IMG/VR virus record: IMGVR_UViG_3300035208_001463
Location: 1-64,000 of that record
Source of the DNA: a virus
Lineage: Duplodnaviria > Caudoviricetes
Length of the DNA: 64,000 nucleotides
Strand: one strand, 5' to 3'
Of the stretch, positions 22,497-63,581 are shown piece after piece. Below the pieces are notes generated by a model that saw only the letters and a list, made by a program, of their open reading frames with translations, made no database searches and was not told the DNA's origin. Each line of letters starts with the position of its first letter. Within the stretch, counting starts at the first letter, position 1. Both the position numbers and the translations under genes were made by a program.

Positions 22497-25106
22497 TTAT
22501 TTGCCTTCTTTAACTCTTTGTTCTCCAAGTTTGACATATTCGGGATTAAGTTCTATCCCTATATAAGTTCTATTGTGTAATTTACAAGCAACTCCTGTTG
22601 CTGAAGAACCAGAGAAAGGATCAATTACGGTTGCTGGAATCGGATCGAGATTGCAGGTACAGGTTGGTTTCCAATCAATTGTTCGTGTATTTTGTGCAAC
22701 ATGTCCTCCGGTTCGTTCTAGCCCTTGCGAATTTCCGGGAACAAGTTTATTCTTTTGATCATCATTTCCAATCGTAGGGCGGGTTATATAAGATTCTTTC
22801 TTTGTAACTCTAACCCAAGGAGCACCACATTTTGGGCATACCCTGTCGGATGTTCCTGCTAAAATTAGGGGTTCTACAAGTCTTACGGGGAATGAATTTC
22901 CGGTTATAAATGGTCTTCCTCCTCTTCTGGCAACAAATGTTCCATTTTCTACAGAAGGACACCATACAATTCCATCATATGAATAATTATCATGTATTAA
23001 AGAAGATGTGCTATTTTTAAAACATCTATCTTTTTTATTATGAGTTATAAATGCTGACCACATTCCCCCTCCACGCTGTGATAAAATACAAGATCTGTTT
23101 GTTCGAAGAAACATAGCTTGAATAATATCAAGCGGTTGTTTTGATTTTTGAGAGATTGTTATTCTACCATCTGGTCTTATATGTCCATCTCCGCCAACAA
23201 ATCCGGAAATAAACGATTCGATATATTCATCTGGAAGCATTATAAAATGTTCCGGTATCATATATTTATTTGGTATCATATGCCGAATTTTTTTTCTATA
23301 TTCTCCACTTATTTTCCATTCTTGTTCTTCCGATGTTGTGTTTTTATAGATTCGTTTTCTTTGCCATGTATTAAAATCAATTTTAAGAAATTCTAACAAG
23401 TATTGAATTCTTTTACATTTTTGCGGATTTTTTGAAACCGATTGTGATATACCTATTCCACCGTTATCTGTAAAATGTCCTTCTGATAATATCCATCCCA
23501 ATAATTCATAATATTCTTTTGGATCATTTGGAATGATTGGATTAAAATCGAGATGTGAAGATACTATAAATTTCATTCCATCTTTAAGGTTTGAAGCTTC
23601 TACTATTTTTGCAGGGTGTCGTCCATTTTTTATTTTTTTATCGCGTGTTGTTACTACACATCTATGATTTGGGGTCATGAGCATATTGCTAGATCTTCCA
23701 AAAACACTTATGAGATTTCCAGAATATCTATATGAAAAGATACTTTTTATTGGTTGTATTTCTAAACATGCTTTTTTCATATTATAGGTAAAAATTGGAG
23801 TTCCTTCTTTAATTTGATCATAACGTTTCCACCCCCCTATTGTAAGACATTCGGTTTCTGAATCTACACAAGCAAAATGTGCACCCTTATAACCTTTCGG
23901 ATTCACCACCAATGCCATTGGTTCCCCATCTTCATTATGAAGAAGTCCTTGCCATGTTTTGAAGAAGAAATCAGAATCGCGCATGTATCGAAGGCCAAGA
24001 CCATTTGGTTCGTAGCGCGCATTAAAACCGGTATATGTTTCGTTGCCGGTGCCGTCTTGTTTAGGAACCGGCGCTACTAATTCATCTGCAATTGTTTCAA
24101 ATTTTGCATATTGTGGGTCGTTACGATCATATTTTGTATTTTCATTAACTTTTTGTCGAACGACCCCGCGTGGGCGTTTATCTTTGTTATAAGATTCCGA
24201 TGATTTCTGCATTGTGGCTATGTGGTCGTAGTAGTATTTTGGAGATTTGGAAAATAAAAATACGTGTTCAATTGAAGAGCCGGGTCTGTCTGTTACCGAG
24301 GAGGGCATACTGTTTCTTTTAATCCAGACGAGATCACTACGGAGATACCAACCACCTTTTGATGCTTTTAACCATTCTTCATCTAGATCTTCTATTGTTC
24401 TTTTTGTATGTTTTGGAACTTCGTCCCATGTATTGTAATCTTGAAGTAAGGACGATTTAATTTTTTCTACAGTATACATTGTTTGTGGTGATGCTGCACC
24501 ATCCGCGCGCATAGAAAAGGCCAACATCCACGGAATTCCTATAATGTCTTTGGGTTTGATATTCCCGGCAGGTTTGTACCGTTTTTGCGGCCATGATGAT
24601 TCAGTATATGTTGCTTTCCCAGTATCTTTTTGACCAGCCCCAGTCCCCGCATACGAATCCCCAATATTCATCCAGAAAATACCATCATTTCTTAAAATTC
24701 TTTTTAGTTCGTGGAATATAGTTGTGAGATGGCGCACAAACATCTCTGGTGTTGGTTCTTGCCCAAGTTCACCTTTCCACGCCCCACATTTAGAACAGAA
24801 ATTTGAAGTGTCGGAACGGAATTGTTTTGTTTTTCCTATACTGTTTGTATTTCCAGTTGCAATGGTTTTTTCCGATCCAGCAGATACAAGAGTTGATAAT
24901 TCTCTCCCGTTTGTGCTTCCCTTTCTAATTATTGGTTTGGATATCCATTCGTGCTGACAATTTGGATCTCCATCCCAAACAATCGGTTCTGTCCCATAAC
25001 TCCGTAGTCCATAGTAAGGACTACTTGTTACAGCCATATGAACAGACTCGCTATCCATCCTCTTCAATACAGTTAAAGCATCGCCTTGAATAATCAATTT
25101 AAACAC
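22497..25106 (-). CDS. beta-class (likely N4-C) DNA methyltransferase containing an intein
   Basis: GDAL, VTSSPYYGLR, IGIPWMLAF, HFA|intein|SFP..L, DPFSGS, GIELNPEY. Confidence 0.9.
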   Translation of the reverse strand: MFKLIIQGDALTVLKRMDSESVHMAVTSSPYYGLRSYGTEPIVWDGDPNCQHEWISKPIIRKGSTNGRELSTLVSAGSEKTIATGNTNSIGKTKQFRSDTSNFCSKCGAWKGELGQEPTPEMFVRHLTTIFHELKRILRNDGIFWMNIGDSYAGTGAGQKDTGKATYTESSWPQKRYKPAGNIKPKDIIGIPWMLAFSMRADGAASPQTMYTVEKIKSSLLQDYNTWDEVPKHTKRTIEDLDEEWLKASKGGWYLRSDLVWIKRNSMPSSVTDRPGSSIEHVFLFSKSPKYYYDHIATMQKSSESYNKDKRPRGVVRQKVNENTKYDRNDPQYAKFETIADELVAPVPKQDGTGNETYTGFNARYEPNGLGLRYMRDSDFFFKTWQGLLHNEDGEPMALVVNPKGYKGAHFACVDSETECLTIGGWKRYDQIKEGTPIFTYNMKKACLEIQPIKSIFSYRYSGNLISVFGRSSNMLMTPNHRCVVTTRDKKIKNGRHPAKIVEASNLKDGMKFIVSSHLDFNPIIPNDPKEYYELLGWILSEGHFTDNGGIGISQSVSKNPQKCKRIQYLLEFLKIDFNTWQRKRIYKNTTSEEQEWKISGEYRKKIRHMIPNKYMIPEHFIMLPDEYIESFISGFVGGDGHIRPDGRITISQKSKQPLDIIQAMFLRTNRSCILSQRGGGMWSAFITHNKKDRCFKNSTSSLIHDNYSYDGIVWCPSVENGTFVARRGGRPFITGNSFPVRLVEPLILAGTSDRVCPKCGAPWVRVTKKESYITRPTIGNDDQKNKLVPGNSQGLERTGGHVAQNTRTIDWKPTCTCNLDPIPATVIDPFSGSSATGVACKLHNRTYIGIELNPEYVKLGEQRVKEGK
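22896..23870 (-). mobile_element. intein with LAGLIDADG homing endonuclease (325 aa) in the MTase
   Basis: Starts CVDSETECLT, block B TPNHR, LLGWILSEG and FISGFVGGDG, ends FITGN followed by Ser. Confidence 0.92.
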
Positions 25107-27134: not shown

Positions 27135-28483
27135 TCATGAACATTTACTCTTTCCACAATTCGTACAAATCCTACATCCGCCTTCCATAACATAATGGGG
27201 ATTATCACAACACTTCTCTTCATTCTTTCCAATCACGATTTCCTTGGGTTGGAGTGTTTTTATGGAGTCATCAATACATTTTCCTGTAATGTCAGCACAT
27301 GATTTTCCACACGATTTTTTATTATTCATGGCAGTCATACACTTTACTTTCGAGAATTGCTTTACATAATTTTCTGCCGGTGTCCCCCATTCAAGACCCG
27401 CAGAAATCGAACGTCCCATTGCTGCCATGTTTGCCTGACATCCACCAACACCATCACCCTCAACAAAGATCATTGTTGGTTCCTCTTTGTCGTGTCCTAT
27501 GATAACATAGAATTTCCCACATCCGCTATGAACTTTATAAATTATAGCAGGTGTTTTTGATTCGTAGAAAGTATTTTCAGTATCGATCCAATCTACTATC
27601 TTATCTTCTACCACGGGTTTCTTTAGGGATAGGACTTCATTTTCACGGCTTCCATTTCTATAAATTGTGAGTCCTTTGCACCCACTCTTCCATGCGTCGA
27701 AAATAATTTGTTTTATTTCTTCTTTGGTAGCAGAGTTTGGAAGGTTGATTGTCTTACTAATTGACATATCAACATTCTTTTGGAATGCTGCTTGCATTTG
27801 GACGTGCATTGAGGATGGGATGTCCATTGCGTTACTAAAGAGAGTTCTAAAAGATTCGGGTAAGAAATCAATATCACGAATAGTTCCTTTCTCGTGACAA
27901 TGCTTAACAATATCGTGCACTTCGTTTAAATCTCTATTATTGTCTTTTACAAACTTTTCTAGTGCTTTTTCAAATAACGGATGCACAATATAATGTTCTC
28001 CCATAGTATCCCTCCGCGTGTATACCCAATTGAACACGGGTTCAATACCCGACGACGCGCCTGCTATAATACTGATTGTTCCGGTTGGCGCTATTGAAGT
28101 TAATGAAGCGTTCATACGGTTTTGTTTGATGTTGGGGTTCTTACCTAACGATTCGGATACCGTGTGCGCGCGTTCATTAATGAATTTCATTACTTCTTCT
28201 GCAAGGTTGATTGCTTTTTGGCTGTTATAAGGAATACCCATTTTAATCAGTGCATCGTGGAATCCCATGATTCCAAGACCGATCTTGCGTGTACGTTTGG
28301 ATGCGAAATCAATTTCCGGGATTGGGTATTTGTTTTTATCGATTACATTGTTTAGGAACACCACTGCTGAATCGATTGTGGATTTGAGTTTGTCGTAGTC
28401 TATTGTGTTGTTTTTGATGTGGTTGGATAGGTTTATGCTGCCGAGATTGCAGCTCCCAAATGATTCCAATAACGCCTCTCCGC
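27135..28483 (-). CDS. nrdJ: class II ribonucleotide reductase, exon 2 (with TSCPD-like domain and Zn ribbon)
   Basis: After splicing reads (C)GEALLESFGSCNLGSINL; RKIGLGIMG, IAPTGTISII, SSGIEP, SISKTIN, KGLTIYR, GKSCAD, EGGCRICTNCG. Confidence 0.92.
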
Positions 28484-28756
28484 CTTGTAGTGAGGCTTTT
28501 TGTTACAGCAACGATGTTTTGTTGCAGGTGCGATCATTTCTGTCGCACTCTCATACTTTCATATGAGATCGGACTATATCATCAATGTCGCGTCTATAGT
28601 CTCTGAACCTTCATCTCATTGAGATGCTTGGCTGCTGATTGCCCAATCATTTCTATTCTTAAAACATTCACGTTTACCATTTCTGATTGCGTTGTAGTTA
28701 GAAATGCTTAAGGGTGTTCCAGCAATTTACGCGATTTTAAATCCGCACGGAATTTA
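28484..28756 (-). ncRNA. group I self-splicing intron (273 nt, no ORF) in nrdJ
   Basis: P AAUUGCUGGAA, Q AAUCAGCAGC, R GUUCAGAGACUAUA, S AUGAUAUAGUCC; P1 AAUCCGU/GCGGAUU with U.G at the 5' splice site; terminal G; removal restores NPCGE in frame. Confidence 0.93.
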
Positions 28757-29450
28757 ACGGATTGGGATCGAGTTCTCCATATTCTGGAGCAGGATTGTGT
28801 TTTTCGATGGTGTCTTTGAATAAAATACCCGGCTCCCCGTTTTTATAAATACCATCAACGATTAAACTCATAATCTCGTTGTTTGGAGATTTCATAAATT
28901 CATCAGTGAGTTTTACAGATATGTTGAAATTTGAAAGTTTTCCTTCGTGTTGTTTACATGTGATAAAGGTTTTGATTTCTGGGTGGGTGATATCAAGGCA
29001 TCCCATCATTGCGCCTCTTCGTGCACCTCCTTGTTTTACAACCTCTGTCATTGTATTAAAAACTTCCATGAAAGAAACCACACCGGAGGAAACACCATTG
29101 CGTTTTCCAACCCTGCTTCCAGCAGGACGGAGTTTTGAGAAATTGAATCCAACGCCTCCCCCCTTCGCAAAGATCTTTGCTGCGTTTTTGTTAGCATCAA
29201 AAATACTTTCAATGGTGTCTTCAACTGGTAATCTGAAGCAAGCCGACAGCATTGGGTTGTCTGTACCGGCGTTCATCAGCGTGGGGGAGTTGGGCAAAAA
29301 ATCTTTATCAAGCATTAATGTCATGAAACTAACAACTTGATTGGGGTCGTTTCCTATATAGTTTGCAACACGTTTACAAACATCTTCATAACAATGCTCT
29401 CCTTCCACACAATATCGTTCTTTAATGAGTTTATCTTCGTAAGTTCCCAT
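28757..29450 (-). CDS. nrdJ: class II ribonucleotide reductase, exon 1
   Basis: FLPNSPTLMNAG, LSACF, GGGVG..FS.LRP, QGGARRGAMM, NFNISV, GEPG; ends NP plus the first base of the Cys codon. Confidence 0.92.
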
Positions 29451-34936: not shown

Positions 34937-37900
34937 ATGCCCGAACTCTGTTTAACCCAATGCGAATATAGTTTTCATAATAATCAACCAATCATTCATC
35001 TCTTCGGTCGTGATTCCACAGGAATCACCCATCGCGTTGATGTTGTAGGGTTTAAACCTTATTTCTTTATCCCCGCTTCCGAATCCCCCAAGGTTCTCCC
35101 ACCCGCTGAACTAGATCCAAACGAATATTTTTCTATTCGTCACGAACCACTTGTTAAAGTTTTCGTACCGAAACCCACTGATATTAAAGACGCGCGCGAG
35201 AAATTTTCAAAACATTTTGAAGCAGATATTTTATATACCCTACGATTTTTGATCGATGTAAAAATCAAATCGGGTTTTTCATATACACAATCTCCCTGTA
35301 CCCCAGAAGATATAACTCCCAAAGAGTTGAATTTCCCTGCGCGCGTTTGTATTGTGGATATCGAATGCAGTGACGAAAATGGGTTTCCCGATGCAACCAA
35401 AGATCCAATTTTCTGTGTAACTGCTTATGATAGTTTCACCAAGCGATATATTACATTTGTCGTTGCTACGTTGCCAATTGATGAAACTCCCAAAGAAAAT
35501 GGATGTTTCAATACTAATCAGCATGATGTTTTAACATACATGGATGAAAAATCCCTTCTCGTGGATTTTGCCGAATATATTAAATCCACAGACCCCGATA
35601 TCATTACTGGGTGGAATTGTGTTCCAGAAGATACAATGGTTGATACACAAAATGGTCTTATTCCAATTAAGAATTTAAATAATGATATTGTTTTAAATAC
35701 CGGAGGGAAAGTTGTATCAGTTTATAATACTGGGGTAAAAAATACATCTCGTATAAAAACATCTATTGGTTGGAATTTTGTTGTTGGGGAAGATCATAGA
35801 ATAATGGTTTCCGAAATTCCACATGATCGCAATTATGTATGGGAGCATTGTGAACATTATGAATCGATATATACGACTCCCGAAAATATAACTTCAAATA
35901 GTATATTGCATGTTCCAATACGACAATATGAAAGCAATATTGGACTTGGGCTCGATCTTTTTAATTGTTATCGAGCAGGACTTATTTATTCCGACGGATC
36001 TAGACCGGATAAGTGGAGATTTAGATTTTACAATAAAAATACAAATCTCGTTGATAGATGCTGTGGAAAAAATCATAGGTGGTTTTCAAAAGGTGTTTGG
36101 TGCTCAAACATATTACAGCGAGATCTCAATGGGGCAGAAAATCTTATTCTTGTTGGTGATAAAAAACAACTTAATTTCGGTTTGCTATCTCGTTTGTCGG
36201 TTGAAGAATTTGGAGCGTTTGTAGCTGGGTGGTATGATGGAGATGGATATTCAGATAGTTTTGCTATAGGAGATCACACCATTGATATTAGGCACTTTCA
36301 GTTGTTTGCTGGTTTTGGAGCAATAACATCATCTTCGTGCAATATAAATTTAAGAATTTTATGCATAACAGAAAAATTATTGACGTGTATAAATATATTT
36401 TTGCAAAAAAAGGTAAAACCAAGAATTCATATAATGAAGAGAAAACGAGTTACTAGGAAAGATCATTTTAGATTTAATTTTAATAAAAATCTTACGAAGA
36501 TGTACTTACGTGTAAAAAATGTAAGGAGAGACACACCAAAAAACTGTTATGATATAACAACAACAGAACATAATTTTTCGATTGGTTGTATTGTGCACAA
36601 TTGTAATGATTTCGACGTGCCATATATTCTTGGTCGTTTTGATAAACTCGGGATTCCTCGTAATGCACTATCCCGTCTTAACACTACAAACGCAGATAGA
36701 GTAGAAATAAAAGGTCGTCAACTCTTTGATTTGCTTGCCGGTTACAAGCGAATGCACCTTGGTGAGCAACCCTCTTACCGTCTTGATGCAATTGCGGCAG
36801 AGGAACTTGGTAAACAGAAAATTCGATTTACTGGGAAAGTTTGCGACCTTTGGAAAAATGATCCAACAAATCTGGTTTATTATAATTTTACAGACGTGGA
36901 ATTGTGTGTGGGTATTGATGAGAAAGACGAAACGGTTGAATTCCACAGACATGTAGCTCAATATGCTGGTTGCCCTCTAGAAAAGACAACAAATTCGATG
37001 CCTATTATTGATATGCTGGTTTTGAGAGAGGCAAAAGAAAATGGATTTGTTCTTCCATCAAAAGCGGGTGTAATTAATACACAAGATTCATTTGAGGGTG
37101 CGACTGTTATTCCACCAGTAAAGGGAATGCATGAAAATGTTGTTATTCTTGATTTGAAATCATTATACCCAATGGCAATGATGACTATTAATGCATCTCC
37201 GGAAACGAAAGATCCAAATGGTGAATTGCACGCTCCAAATGGTGTCAGATTTAAAAAATCCCCCGATGGATTGGTTAGAAAGATTCAGGAAAAGTTCTTG
37301 CGCGAACGAGATGAAATGAAAAGGGAGAGAAATAAATATCCGTTCGATTCACACGAATATAAACTCCTGAATATGAAACAGGATGTTATTAAAGTTTGTA
37401 TGAATTCTTATTATGGTGTATCAGCGAATCCGATGTTTAGACTCAATGATCGCGATGTTGGATCTGCTATTACATCGGTTGGGCGCGCACTTTTGGAACA
37501 CAACAAGAAACTTGTTGAAGCAGAAGGGTTTAAGGTTATTTTTGGTGATACCGATTCAAATGGGGTTAAAATTCCAAAAAGTATCGGCCCCGAAAGTACA
37601 ATGATTATTGCAAAAGAACTTGAAAAACTTCTCAATGATAGTTATCCAATTTTCGCAAAAGAAGTTCTCAATGCAGATGTTTCCTATTTTTCCGTGAAAT
37701 TCGAAAAACTTTATGCGCGCTTCTTTAGCGGTGGGAAAAAGAAACGTTACGCCGGTTTACTCGTCTGGAAAGAAGGCGTGGACGCGCATAAAATTGATAT
37801 TGTTGGTTTTGAGACCAAGCGTTCTGATTCTCCAAAGGTTACGCGTGATGCAATGAAAACACTCATTAAGATGGTTCTCGAAGGCGAACCCTATGAAGAA

Positions 37901-40446: not shown

Positions 40447-41139
40447 CTATTCACTCCCAAAATGTTCTTCGTCGTGGCAATCTTCGCAATAAGTTACCCC
40501 GTTGTCGATGTTCCACAATTCTTTACAATTTTTAGCATCTTGTAATGTTTTAATATTATTTTCTTTTAATATTATAGAAAATAATTTTATGTGATGTGCT
40601 TCTAAGTATCCGCCACGAGTTTTACATTTTTGACAGGTATAATTATCTCTTTCAAATATTTTATGTATCCATTCTCTATATTCAAACGATTCACGTATTG
40701 CTTTACTCAATGGCGTCGTATAAACAAATCCCATCAAAGCATGTTTAATTAATCGTTCCTCGCTCATTCTTTTTCTGGTTTCTATTGGGAAATGATATCC
40801 CAATTTTTTAGTATTTCCCAACTGGGCGTTATGCATTTTTATATGTGCATCGAAAGTATGATGTTGACCAAACATAGGATTATTTTCTCCCATCTTGGAT
40901 TTACTTATATTTTCACAATGTTCTTTGGAACGTGGTGGTTTTGGTTTGTTTTTTAAAGCAACGCTTTGATTATATTTTGTTAATTCCGAAGAAGGGATTC
41001 CTTTGTTCCAAGAGGTTTGTCCTTTATGTGACTTACTCATTTTATCTATAGTAGATTGCGATGCGCGCTTTCCAATATGAGATAATCTATTCTTCTCAAT
41101 CCACAACTTATATTTTTCCGGGTCTTTAGGAGGTGGCAT
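40447..41139 (-). CDS. NUMOD3-repeat HNH endonuclease paralogue 2
   Basis: MPPPKDP, SWNKG, RDNYTCQKC, LEAHHI, NGVTYCEDCH. Confidence 0.88.
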   Translation of the reverse strand: MPPPKDPEKYKLWIEKNRLSHIGKRASQSTIDKMSKSHKGQTSWNKGIPSSELTKYNQSVALKNKPKPPRSKEHCENISKSKMGENNPMFGQHHTFDAHIKMHNAQLGNTKKLGYHFPIETRKRMSEERLIKHALMGFVYTTPLSKAIRESFEYREWIHKIFERDNYTCQKCKTRGGYLEAHHIKLFSIILKENNIKTLQDAKNCKELWNIDNGVTYCEDCHDEEHFGSE

Positions 41140-41141
41140 TT

Positions 41142-41870
41142 TTATGTTTCCTTTGAGTGTCTTTTATCATGACAATCGACACACAATGTGACACCATTTT
41201 CAATATCCCACAAGTCCTTGCATTTTAATGCATCCTCAACAGTTTGAATATTATTCTCCTGTATAATTTGAGCAAACGTTTTTGGGTCGTGGTGACCTTC
41301 TAGATCTCCTCCATGTTTCCCGCAATCACGACAGGTATAATTATCTCTTTTAAATACGGCACCCCTCCATTTATCATACTCGGGTAATCTTCGTATTACC
41401 TTATCAAGTTCCGTTATACCACCTTTATAATTGTGATGATCGGAACCACGATGTGCGGATTCCCTCATTTTAAGTTTTGTTTCCTCCGTGTGGATGTAAC
41501 CAAGTGTTCTAGTATTTCCGATTAAAGATTCACTTATCTTCTCACACGTTTCAATAGATGATTTTGTTCCAATGTGTGCAACACGAATTTTATTCTTTGT
41601 TTCTTCAGATAATTTTACACCTTTACGCGGAGATGTTTTTCCTTTATTAGCCTCGCTTAAATGTTTTCGATGTTCTGGCGACTTGGGTTTATTTTTAAGT
41701 CCTTCACTAATATGTTTGATTTCTTCTTCCGATTTTATACGTCCTTCATTAGATTTGCTTATCTTGTCACAATGTTCTAAAGATAATGGAATCCCACGTC
41801 TTTTTGCGGCTGCTTCATCTATATGTAGTTTCCATAACCTATATCGTTCCGTTCCTTTTTGTGGTGGCAT
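41142..41870 (-). CDS. NUMOD3-repeat HNH endonuclease paralogue 1
   Basis: MPPQKG, HTEETKLKM repeats, NYKGG, RDNYTCRDC, LEGHH, NGVTLCVDCH. Confidence 0.88.
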   Translation of the reverse strand: MPPQKGTERYRLWKLHIDEAAAKRRGIPLSLEHCDKISKSNEGRIKSEEEIKHISEGLKNKPKSPEHRKHLSEANKGKTSPRKGVKLSEETKNKIRVAHIGTKSSIETCEKISESLIGNTRTLGYIHTEETKLKMRESAHRGSDHHNYKGGITELDKVIRRLPEYDKWRGAVFKRDNYTCRDCGKHGGDLEGHHDPKTFAQIIQENNIQTVEDALKCKDLWDIENGVTLCVDCHDKRHSKET

Positions 41871-49791: not shown

Positions 49792-51022
49792 CTAAAATGC
49801 AGCGATGATACCCCAAACTTTAGGTTGGGGAGGAGCGCGTTCACCACCAAAAAGTATTTATACTAATAGTGTTAATATATGAATGTGATTAGGACAATTA
49901 AGTTGAAACTTAATGTTTCTTCTGATGATAAGCAATGTCTCCTGCAAACAATGAGAGATTACACTGTAGCTTTTAACATCTGCTCAAATTGGGGTTTTAA
50001 TAACCACACTGTCAGCAAGATTGACTGTCACAATGCTACTTATAAAATTATTCGACAATCTGTTCCTAATCTACCCTCATCGCTCGTACAAGGTGCAAGA
50101 GATGTTGCATGTGAATCTTTGAAAGCAGTAAAATGCCATTTCAAACCCATTCGAAAAGAACATTCTGCAATGCGATATAACCAAAGAGTTATCCGTATCT
50201 GCCTTGACTCCGGGTATGCAACCATCTCCACATCCAATGGTAGAATTAAGGCCACGTTTTGTATCCCGGAATATTACCGACAATATCTTTCGTGGAAGAT
50301 TAAATCCTCTAATATATCCCTTCGTAAGAACGATGATATTTTCTACTTGCATTGCCAACTTGAAATCGATACCCCGAAGGTAACTACGGAGCGGTCGGTT
50401 ATTGGAATAGACAGAGGCATTGTTAATATTGCAGTATGCTCTAATAATGTTTTCTTTAATGCTAGGGCGATGAAGAATACGCGTGCAAAATATGCATATC
50501 TCCGAGCCGAATTACAGTCTAAAGGCACTCGATCCGCTAAACGAAAGTTGAAAAAACTTTCTGGTCGAGAAAGACGGTTTGTGACTGATGTTAATCATTG
50601 TATTTCGAAGCAAATTATTCAATTCCCATATACAATCCTTGCACTTGAAAACCTTACTAAAATACGCGTACAGAAACGTAGAAGTAAGAAGTTTAATATG
50701 AAATTAAATAGATGGGCTTTTTATGAACTAGAACGGTTTATTCGATACAAGGCAGAGAGTCTTGGTAAACTGGTTATTACTGTTGATGCTCGTTATACCT
50801 CGCAGAAGTGTTCTGCCTGTGGTCATATCTATAAAGGCAACCGGAATGGTTCTCAATACCTCTGTCGTAACTGCGGTTTTGAACTCCATGCTGACCTCAA
50901 TGCTTCCCGCAACATCGCTCAAGATGGTATATCTGTTTTGAGTAGGCTGCCCGTCAACCAGCCAAATGTAGCATGTCCTTGACATAGTTACAAGCCCCGT
51001 CGTTTACGGTGGGGCGGTTGAC
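49792..51022 (+). mobile_element. IS200/IS605-family (IS1341-type, tnpB-only) element
   Basis: Left-end hairpin CCCCAA-ACTTTAGG-TTGGGG (49811-49830); right end GCCCCGTCGTTTACGGTGGGGCGGTTGAC; no tnpA; exact left boundary inferred. Confidence 0.85.
49879..50982 (+). CDS. tnpB: RNA-guided endonuclease TnpB
   Basis: RTIKLKL, RuvC-I GIDRG, RuvC-II LENL, TSQKCSACG..CRNCG, RuvC-III HADLNASRNI. Confidence 0.95.
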   Translation: MNVIRTIKLKLNVSSDDKQCLLQTMRDYTVAFNICSNWGFNNHTVSKIDCHNATYKIIRQSVPNLPSSLVQGARDVACESLKAVKCHFKPIRKEHSAMRYNQRVIRICLDSGYATISTSNGRIKATFCIPEYYRQYLSWKIKSSNISLRKNDDIFYLHCQLEIDTPKVTTERSVIGIDRGIVNIAVCSNNVFFNARAMKNTRAKYAYLRAELQSKGTRSAKRKLKKLSGRERRFVTDVNHCISKQIIQFPYTILALENLTKIRVQKRRSKKFNMKLNRWAFYELERFIRYKAESLGKLVITVDARYTSQKCSACGHIYKGNRNGSQYLCRNCGFELHADLNASRNIAQDGISVLSRLPVNQPNVACP

Positions 51023-62951: not shown

Positions 62952-63581
62952 TTAAATAATATCCCCACCACAAGAAAGTATTGTTTTTGCTACTACATAT
63001 GTTTTAAATGCTTCAAATTCATCATCATATGTTCCCAAATTATATCTTTTTCCGTTATATGAAATTCTTGATTTCCATTTAGATGCATCCTTATTCCAAT
63101 ATACTCCTTTATATTGTGAGGTTTGTATTTCTTTTTGAATTTTATATGGGTTTTTACATGCTATATTATATGCATTGGCAGCGTCATCTTCTAAATCATA
63201 ATATCCCAAACTATTTTGTTTTCCATCTACTATAATTCTAGCGTACCATTTTTTATCACGTGAATGCCATACTACACCCGGATATTTTGATGTTTTTATT
63301 TGATGTCTATTCTGTGCGTTTTGTCTAGTAGTTACAATTCTCAAATTATATTTTTGATTGTTCAATCCGTTTCCATCAATATGATCTGTGAACATACCAT
63401 CTGGTATATATTTTAATACTTCTCGATGCATACGAATTATTTTTCTAGTTTTTGATTCCTTCCTCTCTGCGTATGATGTGTGTTCACGCACACGAGCACA
63501 CCATTTGTATTTATTTAACTCTTCAAAATCATCGTCATCAACTAGTGCAATTTTACCTTGCGTAAGTGGTATTTCTCTCAT
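62952..63581 (-). CDS. HNH endonuclease with two AP2 domains
   Basis: IPLTQGKIALVDDDD, DHIDGNGLNN...NLR, TSKYPGV.W and TSQYKGV.W AP2 repeats. Confidence 0.92.
   Translation of the reverse strand: MREIPLTQGKIALVDDDDFEELNKYKWCARVREHTSYAERKESKTRKIIRMHREVLKYIPDGMFTDHIDGNGLNNQKYNLRIVTTRQNAQNRHQIKTSKYPGVVWHSRDKKWYARIIVDGKQNSLGYYDLEDDAANAYNIACKNPYKIQKEIQTSQYKGVYWNKDASKWKSRISYNGKRYNLGTYDDEFEAFKTYVVAKTILSCGGDII

What the first reader, a model, noticed from the sequence alone, without database searches (positions are those of the whole stretch)
28484..28756. Group I intron splitting the catalytic cysteine codon of an archaeal-virus class II RNR
The two RNR ORFs are one gene. Removing 273 nt joins AAT CCG T|GC GGA GAG and recreates NPCGE, the thiyl-radical motif, in a 680 aa protein. 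Seen: P1 (AAUCCGU/GCGGAUU), P10 (UCCGU/GCGGA), P3 (UCGCGU/ACGCGA), P4, P5abc-like extension, P6a, P7 (GACUA/UAGUC), P9 with a GAAA loop, P9.1, P9.2 and terminal G. To my knowledge archaeal group I introns are described mainly from rRNA, so an mRNA intron in an archaeal virus is unusual. Unspliced RNA stops within a few codons, so dNTP synthesis would be gated by guanosine-dependent splicing.
Basis: partly seen in the sequence, partly recalled or inferred. Interest (0 to 1): 0.9.

Follow-up and report, generated by a model that had tools for sequence, protein, structure and literature searches.

The report
P8-less group I intron, archaeal-virus RNR
A 273-base self-splicing-type (group I) intron splits the catalytic cysteine codon of the B12-type ribonucleotide reductase gene of a large archaeal virus; such introns are routine in bacteriophages, but this one sits in an archaeal virus and lacks a helix (P8) normally counted as part of the ribozyme core.

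Summary
Rfam's group I model scores 72.4 bits (cut-off 50). Removing 28484-28756 (minus strand) joins AAT CCG T|GC GGA GAG, giving NPCGE and a 680-aa NrdJ. Close intron-free homologues run straight through this point.

Six variants of the intron sit at the same site in related viral contigs. The proposed structure is 99.3% paired across them. Six pairs show compensatory changes, including the exon-guide pair in P1.

The archaeal host is supported by my own tests:
- a viral tRNA(CAU) carries a canonical 22-nt bulge-helix-bulge intron at position 37/38;
- TATA/BRE-like boxes lie about 22 nt before start codons and before a tRNA;
- the PolB's nearest isolates are haloarchaeal viruses.

Helix P8 is absent: 11 nt join P3' to P7'. 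The intron is 90-96% identical between viruses whose RNR four-fold sites are only 40-53% identical, so it spread recently despite having no endonuclease gene.

Splicing itself is not shown, and "gating" of dNTP synthesis is speculation.

The scan found this intron family earlier on other DNA (e1-3261946, e1-2067538, e1-3183677).

Verdict: a new variant of a known kind.

The parts
28757..29450 (-). nrdJ exon 1 (231 codons plus the first base of the Cys codon); ends ...AAT CCG T
   Evidence: Pfam Ribonuc_red_lgN and the first part of Ribonuc_red_lgC. Best solved relative is the Thermotoga B12-dependent RNR, 1xjk. Aligns to the N-terminal 231 residues of intron-free homologues.
28484..28756 (-). 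Group I intron, 273 nt, with no ORF and no P2, P7.1/7.2 or P8
   Evidence: Rfam RF00028 72.4 bits. Boundaries fixed by the intron-free allele L004 and by five further intron-bearing alleles. Structure counts.
27135..28483 (-). nrdJ exon 2 (GC GGA GAG ... stop); rest of the barrel domain plus a C-terminal TSCPD/Cys-rich domain
   Evidence: Pfam Ribonuc_red_lgC and TSCPD. 88% identical to the matching part of 680-aa intron-free proteins.
28740..28763 (-). P1: exon AAUCCGU (28763-28757) paired with the internal guide GCGGAUU (28746-28740), with U.G at the 5' splice site. The loop holds the P10 guide UCCGU (28751-28747).
   Evidence: Read from the sequence. The pair exon G/guide C in 3 variants becomes exon A/guide U in 3 others (columns 11/24).
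28474..28483 (-). 3' exon partner of P10 (GCGGA, 28483-28479) and the exon strand (GAGGC, 28478-28474) of a hairpin that bridges the 3' splice site with intron GCCUC (28496-28492)
   Evidence: P10 is 100% paired in 6 variants; the bridging hairpin is 96.7% paired (helices 2 and 14).
28588..28734 (-). P3 (UCGCGU 28734-28729 with ACGCGA 28593-28588), which encloses the P4-P6 domain: P4 28724-28719/28638-28633, P5 28714-28712/28644-28642, P5a 28706-28699/28655-28648, P5b 28675-28662, P6 28632-28630/28609-28607, P6a 28626-28612
   Evidence: Rfam alignment, the RNAfold minimum-energy structure and pair counts. Compensatory changes in P5a and P6a.
28572..28601 (-). P7 (GACUA 28601-28597 with UAGUC 28576-28572). 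The 11-nt stretch CAUUGAUGAUA (28587-28577) stands where J3/8, P8 and J8/7 would be, so there is no P8.
   Evidence: The Rfam alignment skips 59 model positions here and leaves 1 nt. The same gap is present in all six variants. Phage relatives keep a short P8.
28484..28568 (-). 3' domain: P9 with a GAAA loop (28568-28551), P9.1 (28548-28528), P9.2 (28525-28508), a tail, and the terminal G at 28484
   Evidence: Pair counts with compensatory changes in P9.1 and P9.2. P9.2 is a different sequence in L010 but still forms a hairpin.

Best explanation
The two RNR reading frames are one nrdJ (B12-type, class II) gene of a large DNA virus of archaea, interrupted by an ORF-less 273-nt group I intron inside the codon of the thiyl-radical cysteine.

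Inferred mechanism: the standard group I pathway. The guide GCGGAUU pairs with the end of exon 1 (P1, U.G at the cleavage site). An external guanosine attacks the 5' splice site. The neighbouring guide bases UCCGU then hold the start of exon 2 (P10). The terminal G (28484) occupies the G site, and the exons are ligated to give ...AAT CCG TGC GGA GAG... (NPCGE). Without splicing, translation stops 7 codons into the intron, and neither half carries the catalytic Cys.

The ribozyme is a stripped-down relative of bacteriophage introns. It keeps P1, P3-P7, P9-P9.2 and P10 but has lost P2, P7.1/7.2 and P8, together with any homing-endonuclease gene.

It has spread recently among related viruses. The likely routes are recombination or a free-standing endonuclease acting in trans.

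Shown here: sequence, boundaries, structure conservation, selection on the exons and the archaeal signals. Inferred: splicing, its autonomy, and the route of spread.
For: - Rfam RF00028 scores 72.4 bits. The same model scores 67-79 bits on the copies in L002, L003, L008, L010, L100, L105, L111 and L115.
- Intron-free alleles P0003, P0004, P0008 (L004) and P0009 are continuous across the site.
- On six variants, 76 pairs are 99.3% paired. Six pairs show double changes, in P1, P5a, P6a, P9.1 and two in P9.2. Slid controls are 35-45% paired.
- Exons of intron-bearing alleles are 82-87% identical in protein, while four-fold degenerate sites are only 40-53% identical. The protein is therefore under purifying selection and must be made.
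- The introns of the same genomes are 90-96% identical.
- The intron's 5' half is 76-80% identical to introns of Staphylococcus, Bacillus, Listeria and Vibrio phages. Those relatives have P7.1, a short P8 and an HNH gene after P9.
- Archaeal host: tRNA(CAU) with a 22-nt BHB intron at 37/38. TATA/BRE-like boxes have an ATG 20-23 nt downstream in 15 of 74 cases against 6 expected, P = 8e-4, and one lies 22 nt before tRNA-Leu. PolB's best isolates are haloarchaeal tailed viruses. The nearest clearly cellular NrdJ proteins are from Methanomicrobiales, at 43-44%.
- No terminase, portal or HK97 capsid was recognised among the larger ORFs scanned.
- Class II: named homologues are adenosylcobalamin-dependent RNRs, the best solved relative is 1xjk, and the record holds no NrdB.
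Against: - No splicing was observed. No run on record as RNA holds the locus.
- P8, normally part of the conserved core, is absent. Autonomous catalysis is therefore uncertain.
- Related contigs were binned once into an 'archaeon' MAG and once into a 'Patescibacteria' MAG, so bin labels give no host.
- The six variants are 90-96% identical, so most pairs never vary and carry no information.
- The P1 covariation could have been inherited by co-conversion of exon flanks rather than arising repeatedly.
- Patchiness of the intron on the RNR tree is not forced by well-supported branches.
Confidence: 0.8

Rival explanations
1. It is a real group I intron, but it cannot splice on its own. With P2 and P8 gone, it needs a viral or host protein (or very high Mg2+) to hold the P3-P9 domain together.
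For: P8 is absent in all six variants, and no P2-L2/P8 clamp is possible. Many organellar group I introns depend on proteins (established knowledge).
Against: Large peripheral elements remain that usually stabilise the core in phage-type introns: the P5a/P5b extension, the L9 GAAA loop, P9.1 and P9.2, all with covariation. P8-less relatives occur in unrelated viral genes and contigs (L097, the second intron of L103, and the L099 group). A cofactor specific to one virus cannot explain those cases.
Confidence: 0.2
2. It is a dead intron remnant. Loss of P8 inactivated the ribozyme, and nrdJ is a pseudogene in these viruses.
For: A core helix is missing. No spliced RNA was seen.
Against: In five diverged intron-bearing alleles both exons are intact. 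Protein identity is 82-87% while four-fold sites are near saturation at 40-53%. Compensatory changes keep P1, P5a, P6a, P9.1 and P9.2 paired. The frame is restored exactly in every allele.
Confidence: 0.05
3. The contig is a bacteriophage, for example of Patescibacteria, so this is an ordinary phage RNR intron.
For: One related contig lies in a MAG labelled Patescibacteria. The replication genes (AAA_24, DUF669, SNF2 helicase, NrS-1-type primase-polymerase) and the HNH/NUMOD3 nucleases are common in phages. The intron's nearest sequence relatives are in phages.
Against: A canonical BHB intron at 37/38 in a viral tRNA needs the archaeal splicing endonuclease. The promoter boxes have archaeal spacing. 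There is no excess of sigma-70 sites or intrinsic terminators. PolB groups with haloarchaeal viruses. The sister contig is in an 'archaeon' MAG. No tailed-phage hallmark genes were recognised.
Confidence: 0.04
4. The two ORFs are made as separate polypeptides that assemble into a split RNR without RNA splicing.
For: Gene callers predict two proteins, and in some alleles an in-frame ATG inside the intron extends exon 2 (P0005, P0006).
Against: The Cys codon itself is split, so neither product has the catalytic Cys. The in-frame extension is not conserved: the window has a 5-nt longer tail, which shifts the frame. The spacer is a conserved ribozyme fold.
Confidence: 0.01

Closest known systems
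Group I introns in bacteriophage and Bacillus ribonucleotide reductase genes. T4 nrdB and nrdD/sunY, SPbeta bnrdE/bnrdF and Twort are from my own knowledge. B. cereus-group nrdE/nrdF introns: PMC2248736. RNRdb curated over 100 group I introns in RNR genes: PMC2795772.
   Same: A group I intron sits in a highly conserved, catalytically important stretch of a viral RNR gene. There is an early stop in the intron, P1/P10 guide pairing, and a sporadic presence among close relatives.
   Different: The host is an archaeon. The gene is class II nrdJ. The intron has no ORF and no P2, P7.1/7.2 or P8.
Nearest by sequence: introns in the Staphylococcus phage PT1-4 lysin gene (L014), next to the Vibrio phage 1.232.O major capsid gene (L015), and in Bacillus phage vB_BsuM-Goe20 (L016)
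   Same: 76-80% identity over P3-P4-P5 extension-P6-P7. Same J6/7 and J8/7 core sequences and a GNRA-capped P9.
   Different: The phage introns keep a short P8 (about 4 bp). Two of them keep a P7.1 hairpin, and they carry an HNH endonuclease gene after P9. No cultured phage record matches across the P7-P3'-J8/7 junction without P8.
Archaeal group I introns of Nawrocki, Jones and Eddy 2018 (PMC6125680)
   Same: Group I introns in an archaeal setting. One such LSU-rRNA intron from the same landfill sample series (L104) shares the J8/7-P7-J7/9-P9 sequence pattern.
   Different: All 39 are in rRNA genes, are of subtypes IB4 or IA3, and often carry LAGLIDADG genes. The authors set aside IA2-type hits in 'archaeal' records as possible phage contamination. 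The intron here is in an mRNA and in a virus.
[quoted passage not shown]
   Same: A self-splicing mobile intron carried by viruses of archaea, present in only some genomes.
   Different: A different ribozyme class with a reverse transcriptase. It does not interrupt a catalytic codon of a core enzyme.

Membership tests
Group I intron (Rfam RF00028) | Covariance-model score above the curated threshold | tested here: met
   72.4 bits against 50, E = 2e-16. Sister copies score 67-79 bits.
Group I intron (Rfam RF00028) | P1 formed by the 5' exon end and an internal guide, with U.G at the 5' splice site, and P10 with the 3' exon | tested here: met
   AAUCCGU/GCGGAUU with U.G, and UCCGU/GCGGA. Both are 100% paired in 6 variants, with one compensatory pair in P1.
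Group I intron (Rfam RF00028) | Terminal G at the 3' end, and exact restoration of the host frame | tested here: met
   G at 28484. Only this junction gives TGC and the 680-aa frame. All five alleles whose joined frame was checked restore NPCGE.
Group I intron (Rfam RF00028) | Conserved core: the P3/P7 pseudoknot, P4-P6, and the J6/7 and J8/7 sequences | tested here: met
   Rfam alignment. P3, P4, P5, P6 and P7 are 100% paired.
Group I intron (Rfam RF00028) | Helix P8 between P3' and J8/7, part of the canonical P3-P8 core (definition taken from my own knowledge of the field) | tested here: not met
   Only CAU lies between ACGCGA and UGAUGAUAUAGUC. Rfam skips 59 model positions. The same holds in all variants. 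I therefore file it as a variant, not a canonical member.
Group I intron (Rfam RF00028) | Guanosine-dependent self-splicing | not testable with these tools
   No run on record as RNA holds the locus.
Subgroup IA2 (phage type) | P7.1/P7.2 hairpins between P7 and P3' (from my own knowledge) | tested here: not met
   Only UAG lies between GACUA and ACGCGA. Relatives L014 and L015 have an insert there. Sequence kinship to phage introns is shown, but subgroup membership is not.
Homing (mobile) intron | An endonuclease gene inside the intron | tested here: not met
   273 nt with no ORF. HNH/NUMOD3 and HNH-AP2 genes lie elsewhere in the genome. No nuclease domain was found in the genes flanking nrdJ.
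Homing (mobile) intron | Intron far more alike between genomes than the host gene, and patchy presence | tested here: inconclusive
   Introns are 90-96% identical against 40-53% at four-fold sites, so this half is met. The best tree needs 3 gains or losses, but well-supported branches allow a single origin.
Class II ribonucleotide reductase (NrdJ) | RNR alpha barrel with the N-x-C-x-E loop, kinship to B12-dependent enzymes, and no radical-generating small subunit | tested here: met
   Pfam domains. Best solved relative 1xjk, B12-dependent. Homologues named adenosylcobalamin-dependent. No PF00268 in the 112.5-kb record. Cofactor use itself is not testable here.
Virus of archaea | Dependence on archaeal RNA processing and transcription signals | tested here: met
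   tRNA(CAU) at genome 109025-109120 has a 22-nt intron at 37/38. It forms helix-bulge(UAA)-4 bp(CUCA/UGGG)-bulge(CGA)-helix. T[AT][AT]A[AT]ATAC boxes lie about 22 nt before ATGs and before tRNA-Leu.
Virus of archaea | A direct host link (CRISPR spacer, provirus, isolate) | not tested
   Bin labels conflict. The host lineage is unresolved. The Methanoregula and methanogen readings in earlier notes were not checked.

The most novel reading that the evidence does not exclude
This is a working member of a natural class of group I ribozymes that splice without helix P8 (and without P2). They circulate without their own endonuclease between bacterial and archaeal viruses. It would be the first group I intron reported in a protein-coding gene of an archaeal virus, and it co-exists in one genome with an archaeal BHB intron and two inteins.
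Probability: 0.45. Interest if true: 0.75.

Novelty: new variant of a known kind. Interest (0 to 1): 0.6.

Why it matters
Group I introns in phage RNR genes are textbook material. In archaea, by contrast, they are reported only from rRNA genes (PMC6125680). My literature searches found no report of one in an archaeal virus or in an archaeal mRNA.

If the intron splices, three things follow:
- Phage-type group I introns cross the domain boundary through viruses.
- An archaeal cell can express a gene that depends on a self-splicing ribozyme.
- A compact natural ribozyme works without P8. That makes the role of the P3-P8 stack directly testable with a 273-nt RNA, and natural comparators with a 3-4-bp P8 are in hand.

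The finding also bears on the IA2-type hits in 'archaeal' records that the 2018 survey set aside as possible contamination. Some of those may have been viruses like this one.

Tried and rejected
- **RNA evidence.** No listed holder is on record as RNA. I laid four wastewater runs labelled 'RNA-Seq cDNA' (a guess; contigs up to 50 kb, probably holding DNA) on the gene. Several contigs run unspliced through one or both junctions. One contig joins 28442 to 28773 (skips 330 nt, letters between not known). This cannot be told from the intron-free DNA alleles that exist, so it counts neither way. High depth over 28539-28694 comes from other organisms' intron cores.
- **Host from MAG bins.** Contradictory ('archaeon' against 'Patescibacteria'), so rejected as evidence. 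Methanoregula nrdJ contigs come from the same two JGI samples as two intron-bearing contigs. That is only co-occurrence.
- **Homing endonuclease next to nrdJ.** None found.
- **Literature on natural P8-less group I introns.** Nothing relevant found. This does not prove novelty.
- **First P5a pairing (with 72-79).** Replaced by the long-range pairing, which has a compensatory pair.
- **P8-less pattern scan.** At least six of 20 metagenome hits are chance matches in epimerase-type coding sequence (RDYIHVEDIV) and were discarded, and three more look like chance matches.
- **Tree test for repeated gain and loss.** Suggestive only.
- **Radical-SAM gene of L097 against that of L004.** 27% identity, so it says nothing about a shared host.

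Full report
**1. What is there**

Two RNR reading frames lie on the minus strand, at 28737-29450 and 27135-28469. They carry the N-terminal and C-terminal parts of the RNR alpha barrel (Pfam).

Reading the minus strand, exon 1 ends ...GAT CCC AAT CCG T at 28757. The intervening 273 nt run from 28756 to 28484. Exon 2 starts GC GGA GAG at 28483. Exon 1 is 694 nt, so the final T is the first base of a codon. Joining gives TGC and the motif NPCGE in a 680-aa protein. Unspliced, the frame reads NPLNSVRI and stops at 28739-28737.

Rfam's group I model hits the minus strand with 72.4 bits against a threshold of 50, E = 2e-16. It is the only such hit in the whole 112.5-kb record. The Rfam alignment misplaces P1 in exon 1 and ends at P9. 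The true ends follow from the exons and from comparison with relatives.

**2. Comparative proof of the boundaries**

A protein search with exon 2 found two kinds of relative:
- full-length proteins of 680-682 aa at 80-88% identity to exon 2 (P0003, P0004, P0008, P0009);
- 'split' proteins (P0005, P0006, P0007).

In the alignment the full-length proteins run NPC(T/A)EALL straight across the junction. More distant homologues, including Methanomicrobium, have NPCGE.

The DNA of L004 (P0008) has no insert. L002/L003, L010, L012, L013 and L093 carry a 267-273-nt insert at exactly the same phase-1 position of the Cys codon. The metagenome scan added more copies: L100, L105, L111 and L115.

**3. Structure**

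I wrote the helices onto an alignment of six variants with short exon flanks (A3).
- The 76 pairs are 99.3% paired.
- Sliding the 3' partners by 1-3 columns gives 35-45% paired.
- Six pairs show changes on both sides.

The most telling pair is in P1. Exon CCG pairs with guide GCGGAUU in the window, L093 and L010. Exon CCA pairs with guide GUGGAUU in L003, L012 and L013.

Other compensatory pairs lie in P5a, P6a and P9.1, with two in P9.2. In L010 the P9.2 hairpin is a wholly different sequence that still folds.

The covariation C:G <-> U:A and the RNAfold minimum-energy structure both favour a long-range P5a, 51-58 with 102-109 (z = -2.86 against shuffles).

A further conserved hairpin (GCCUC in the intron with GAGGC in exon 2) bridges the 3' splice site.

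The caveat is that the variants are 90-96% identical. Most pairs never vary, and the P1 change may have spread by co-conversion rather than arising repeatedly.

**4. What is missing**

Between the 3' strand of P3 (ACGCGA) and the 3' strand of P7 (UAGUC) there are 11 nt, CAUUGAUGAUA. The last 8 match the J8/7 consensus. Rfam's alignment jumps 59 model positions (P8) with 1 nt left. There is also no P2 and no P7.1/7.2.

The nearest sequence relatives are introns of Staphylococcus, Bacillus, Listeria and Vibrio phages. They are 76-80% identical over P3 to P7. These keep a short P8 of about 4 bp. Two of them keep a P7.1 hairpin, and they carry an HNH gene after P9. No cultured phage record matches across the P8-less junction.

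A pattern scan for the short P7-to-J8/7 spacing found further natural cases:
- L097: an intron in a capsid-like gene of a 40.8-kb viral contig (Rfam 57 bits, again skipping P8).
- L103: twin introns in a capsid-like gene. The first has a 3-bp P8; the second has none.
- L099, L107, L109 and L114: an AT-rich group.
- L104: an archaeal LSU-rRNA intron with a 4-bp P8 and the same J8/7-P7-P9 pattern. It comes from the same JGI landfill sample (Ga0172381) as sister contig L003.

L097, L103 and the window share a 3' domain: P9 with a GNRA loop, P9.1 with an AGAAAU loop, P9.2, and a GUAACA tail.

P8 therefore looks vestigial to absent in a whole lineage. This argues that the loss is tolerated. It does not prove activity.

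**5. Is the gene in use?**

Across five intron-bearing alleles the exons are 76-81% identical in DNA and 82-87% identical in protein. Four-fold degenerate sites are only 40-53% identical, which is close to saturation. The protein is thus under purifying selection.

A split product would lack the catalytic Cys, and the in-frame start inside the intron is not conserved. Splicing is therefore the only reading that gives a working enzyme. This is an inference, not an observation.

**6. Mobility**

The introns of these same genomes are 90-96% identical. That is far above the neutral expectation from their host genes, and it includes loops. This points to recent lateral spread.

On an RNR tree, intron-bearing and intron-free alleles are interleaved. 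L010 groups with the intron-free P0008 and P0009 at 94/89 support, and the best tree needs three changes. Strongly supported branches do not exclude one origin.

The intron has no ORF, and no nuclease gene flanks nrdJ. The genome does hold free-standing NUMOD3-HNH and HNH-AP2 genes. All intron-bearing alleles read NPCGE, while the four closest intron-free alleles read NPC(T/A)E. This removes the P10 partner and may mark resistant or never-invaded sites.

**7. Host domain**

The record is an IMG/VR virus, 112,520 bp, estimated 82% complete. Five lines support an archaeal host.
Its sequence folds as anticodon stem CACGG/CCGUG, a 4-bp helix CUCA/UGGG, 3-nt bulges UAA and CGA, and an outer helix GAAUG/CAUUC. 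This is a canonical bulge-helix-bulge motif. ARAGORN in intron mode calls tRNA(CAT) with a 22-nt intron at 37/38. To my knowledge, BHB introns are cut only by the archaeal/eukaryal splicing endonuclease.
- (b) A box T[AT][AT]A[AT]ATAC, often preceded by GAAAG-like purines, occurs 74 times. An ATG follows at 20-23 nt in 15 cases against 6 expected (P = 8e-4). Reversed and reverse-complement controls show no peak. The same box lies 22 nt before the first base of tRNA-Leu. This fits archaeal TATA/BRE promoters with leaderless transcripts.
- (c) Sigma-70-like sites (76 against 82 +/- 8.5) and intrinsic terminators (14 against 13.6 +/- 3.5) are not enriched.
- (d) The best PolB matches among 50,697 phage and virus records are haloarchaeal tailed viruses. 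The nearest clearly cellular NrdJ proteins are from Methanomicrobiales.
- (e) No terminase, portal or HK97 capsid was recognised among the larger ORFs scanned.

Against this, sister contigs sit in one MAG labelled 'archaeon' and one labelled 'Patescibacteria'. I take that as mis-binning. The host lineage stays open.

**8. Direct evidence of splicing**

None. No run on record as RNA holds the locus. The four possible RNA runs gave unspliced contigs and one ambiguous joint.

**9. Comparison with what is known**

RNR genes are the classic home of phage group I introns. RNRdb curated over 100 (PMC2795772), and PMC2248736 describes the B. cereus-group nrdE/nrdF introns.

In archaea, Nawrocki et al. 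found 39 group I introns, all in rRNA genes. They set aside IA2-type hits as possible phage contamination (PMC6125680). Group II introns are reported in Methanoperedens viruses. Six literature searches found no group I intron in an archaeal virus or an archaeal mRNA. The library is incomplete, so this is absence of a report and not proof.

The scan itself met this intron family before, on other genomes (e1-3261946, e1-2067538, e1-3183677). Those readings agree with mine.

**10. Verdict**

It works like a group I intron and passes every membership test except P8. I class it as a new variant of a known kind, of moderate to good interest, mainly for the archaeal-virus setting and the natural P8-less core.

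Noticed in passing
L007:5026-5120 (-), genome 109025-109120, outside the window: A viral tRNA(CAU) carries a canonical 22-nt bulge-helix-bulge intron at 37/38, next to tRNA-Ile(UAU). One genome therefore holds a BHB intron, a group I intron and two inteins.
   Followed up: yes
window 35618-36601 (+): The PolB (1122 aa) carries an insert of about 328 aa after ...DIITGWN, ending ...VHN|C, with a LAGLIDADG-like WYDGDGY block. The homologue in L004 (795 aa, 80% identical) lacks it. This is very likely an intein.
   Followed up: partly
window 22896-23870 (-): The N6/N4 DNA methylase (869 aa) carries an insert of about 325 aa with a LAGLIDADG_3 hit, ending ...TGN|S. The insert is absent from the 518-aa homologue in L003. 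It is a probable second intein.
   Followed up: partly
whole genome, e.g. window 7335, 25543, 27129, 38462, 43727, 60179: A box T[AT][AT]A[AT]ATAC occurs 74 times, often with ACGCGT just downstream, and lies about 22 nt before start codons and before tRNA-Leu. These look like archaeal TATA/BRE promoters with leaderless transcripts.
   Followed up: partly
L007:1662-1734 (-), genome about 105662-105734: Rfam DUF3800-X RNA motif (RF02984) at 57.3 bits against a threshold of 38.2, lying between the tRNA-Pro and tRNA-Gln genes.
   Followed up: no
L103:1145-1670 (+): Two group I introns of the same family lie back to back in a capsid-like gene of a groundwater contig. The first has a 3-bp P8 (CGCUACAGCG); the second has none.
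   Followed up: partly
L097:2040-2260 (-): A second P8-less group I intron (Rfam 57 bits) sits in a capsid-like gene of a 40.8-kb viral contig. Two LAGLIDADG genes lie just upstream, suggesting more introns in the same gene.
   Followed up: partly
L104:3700-4160 (+): An archaeal LSU-rRNA group I intron has a LAGLIDADG-type ORF running into P7. It shares the GAUGAUAUAGUCCGAUCU...GAAA pattern with the viral intron and comes from the same JGI sample (Ga0172381) as sister contig L003.
   Followed up: no
window 28479-28483 and homologues: All intron-bearing alleles read NPCGE. The four closest intron-free alleles read NPCTE or NPCAE, which removes the P10 partner. These may be resistant or never-invaded target sites.
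   Followed up: partly
window 28580-28587 (-): The stretch standing in place of P8 reads CAUUGAUG (CAUCGAUG in three variants). It is self-complementary, with no room for a loop. This may be chance, because its 3' half is the conserved J8/7.
   Followed up: no
window 40447-41870 (-), 62952-63581 (-), 49879-50982 (+): Free-standing NUMOD3/HNH and HNH-AP2 nuclease genes and a TnpB gene. These are candidates for moving the ORF-less intron in trans.
   Followed up: no
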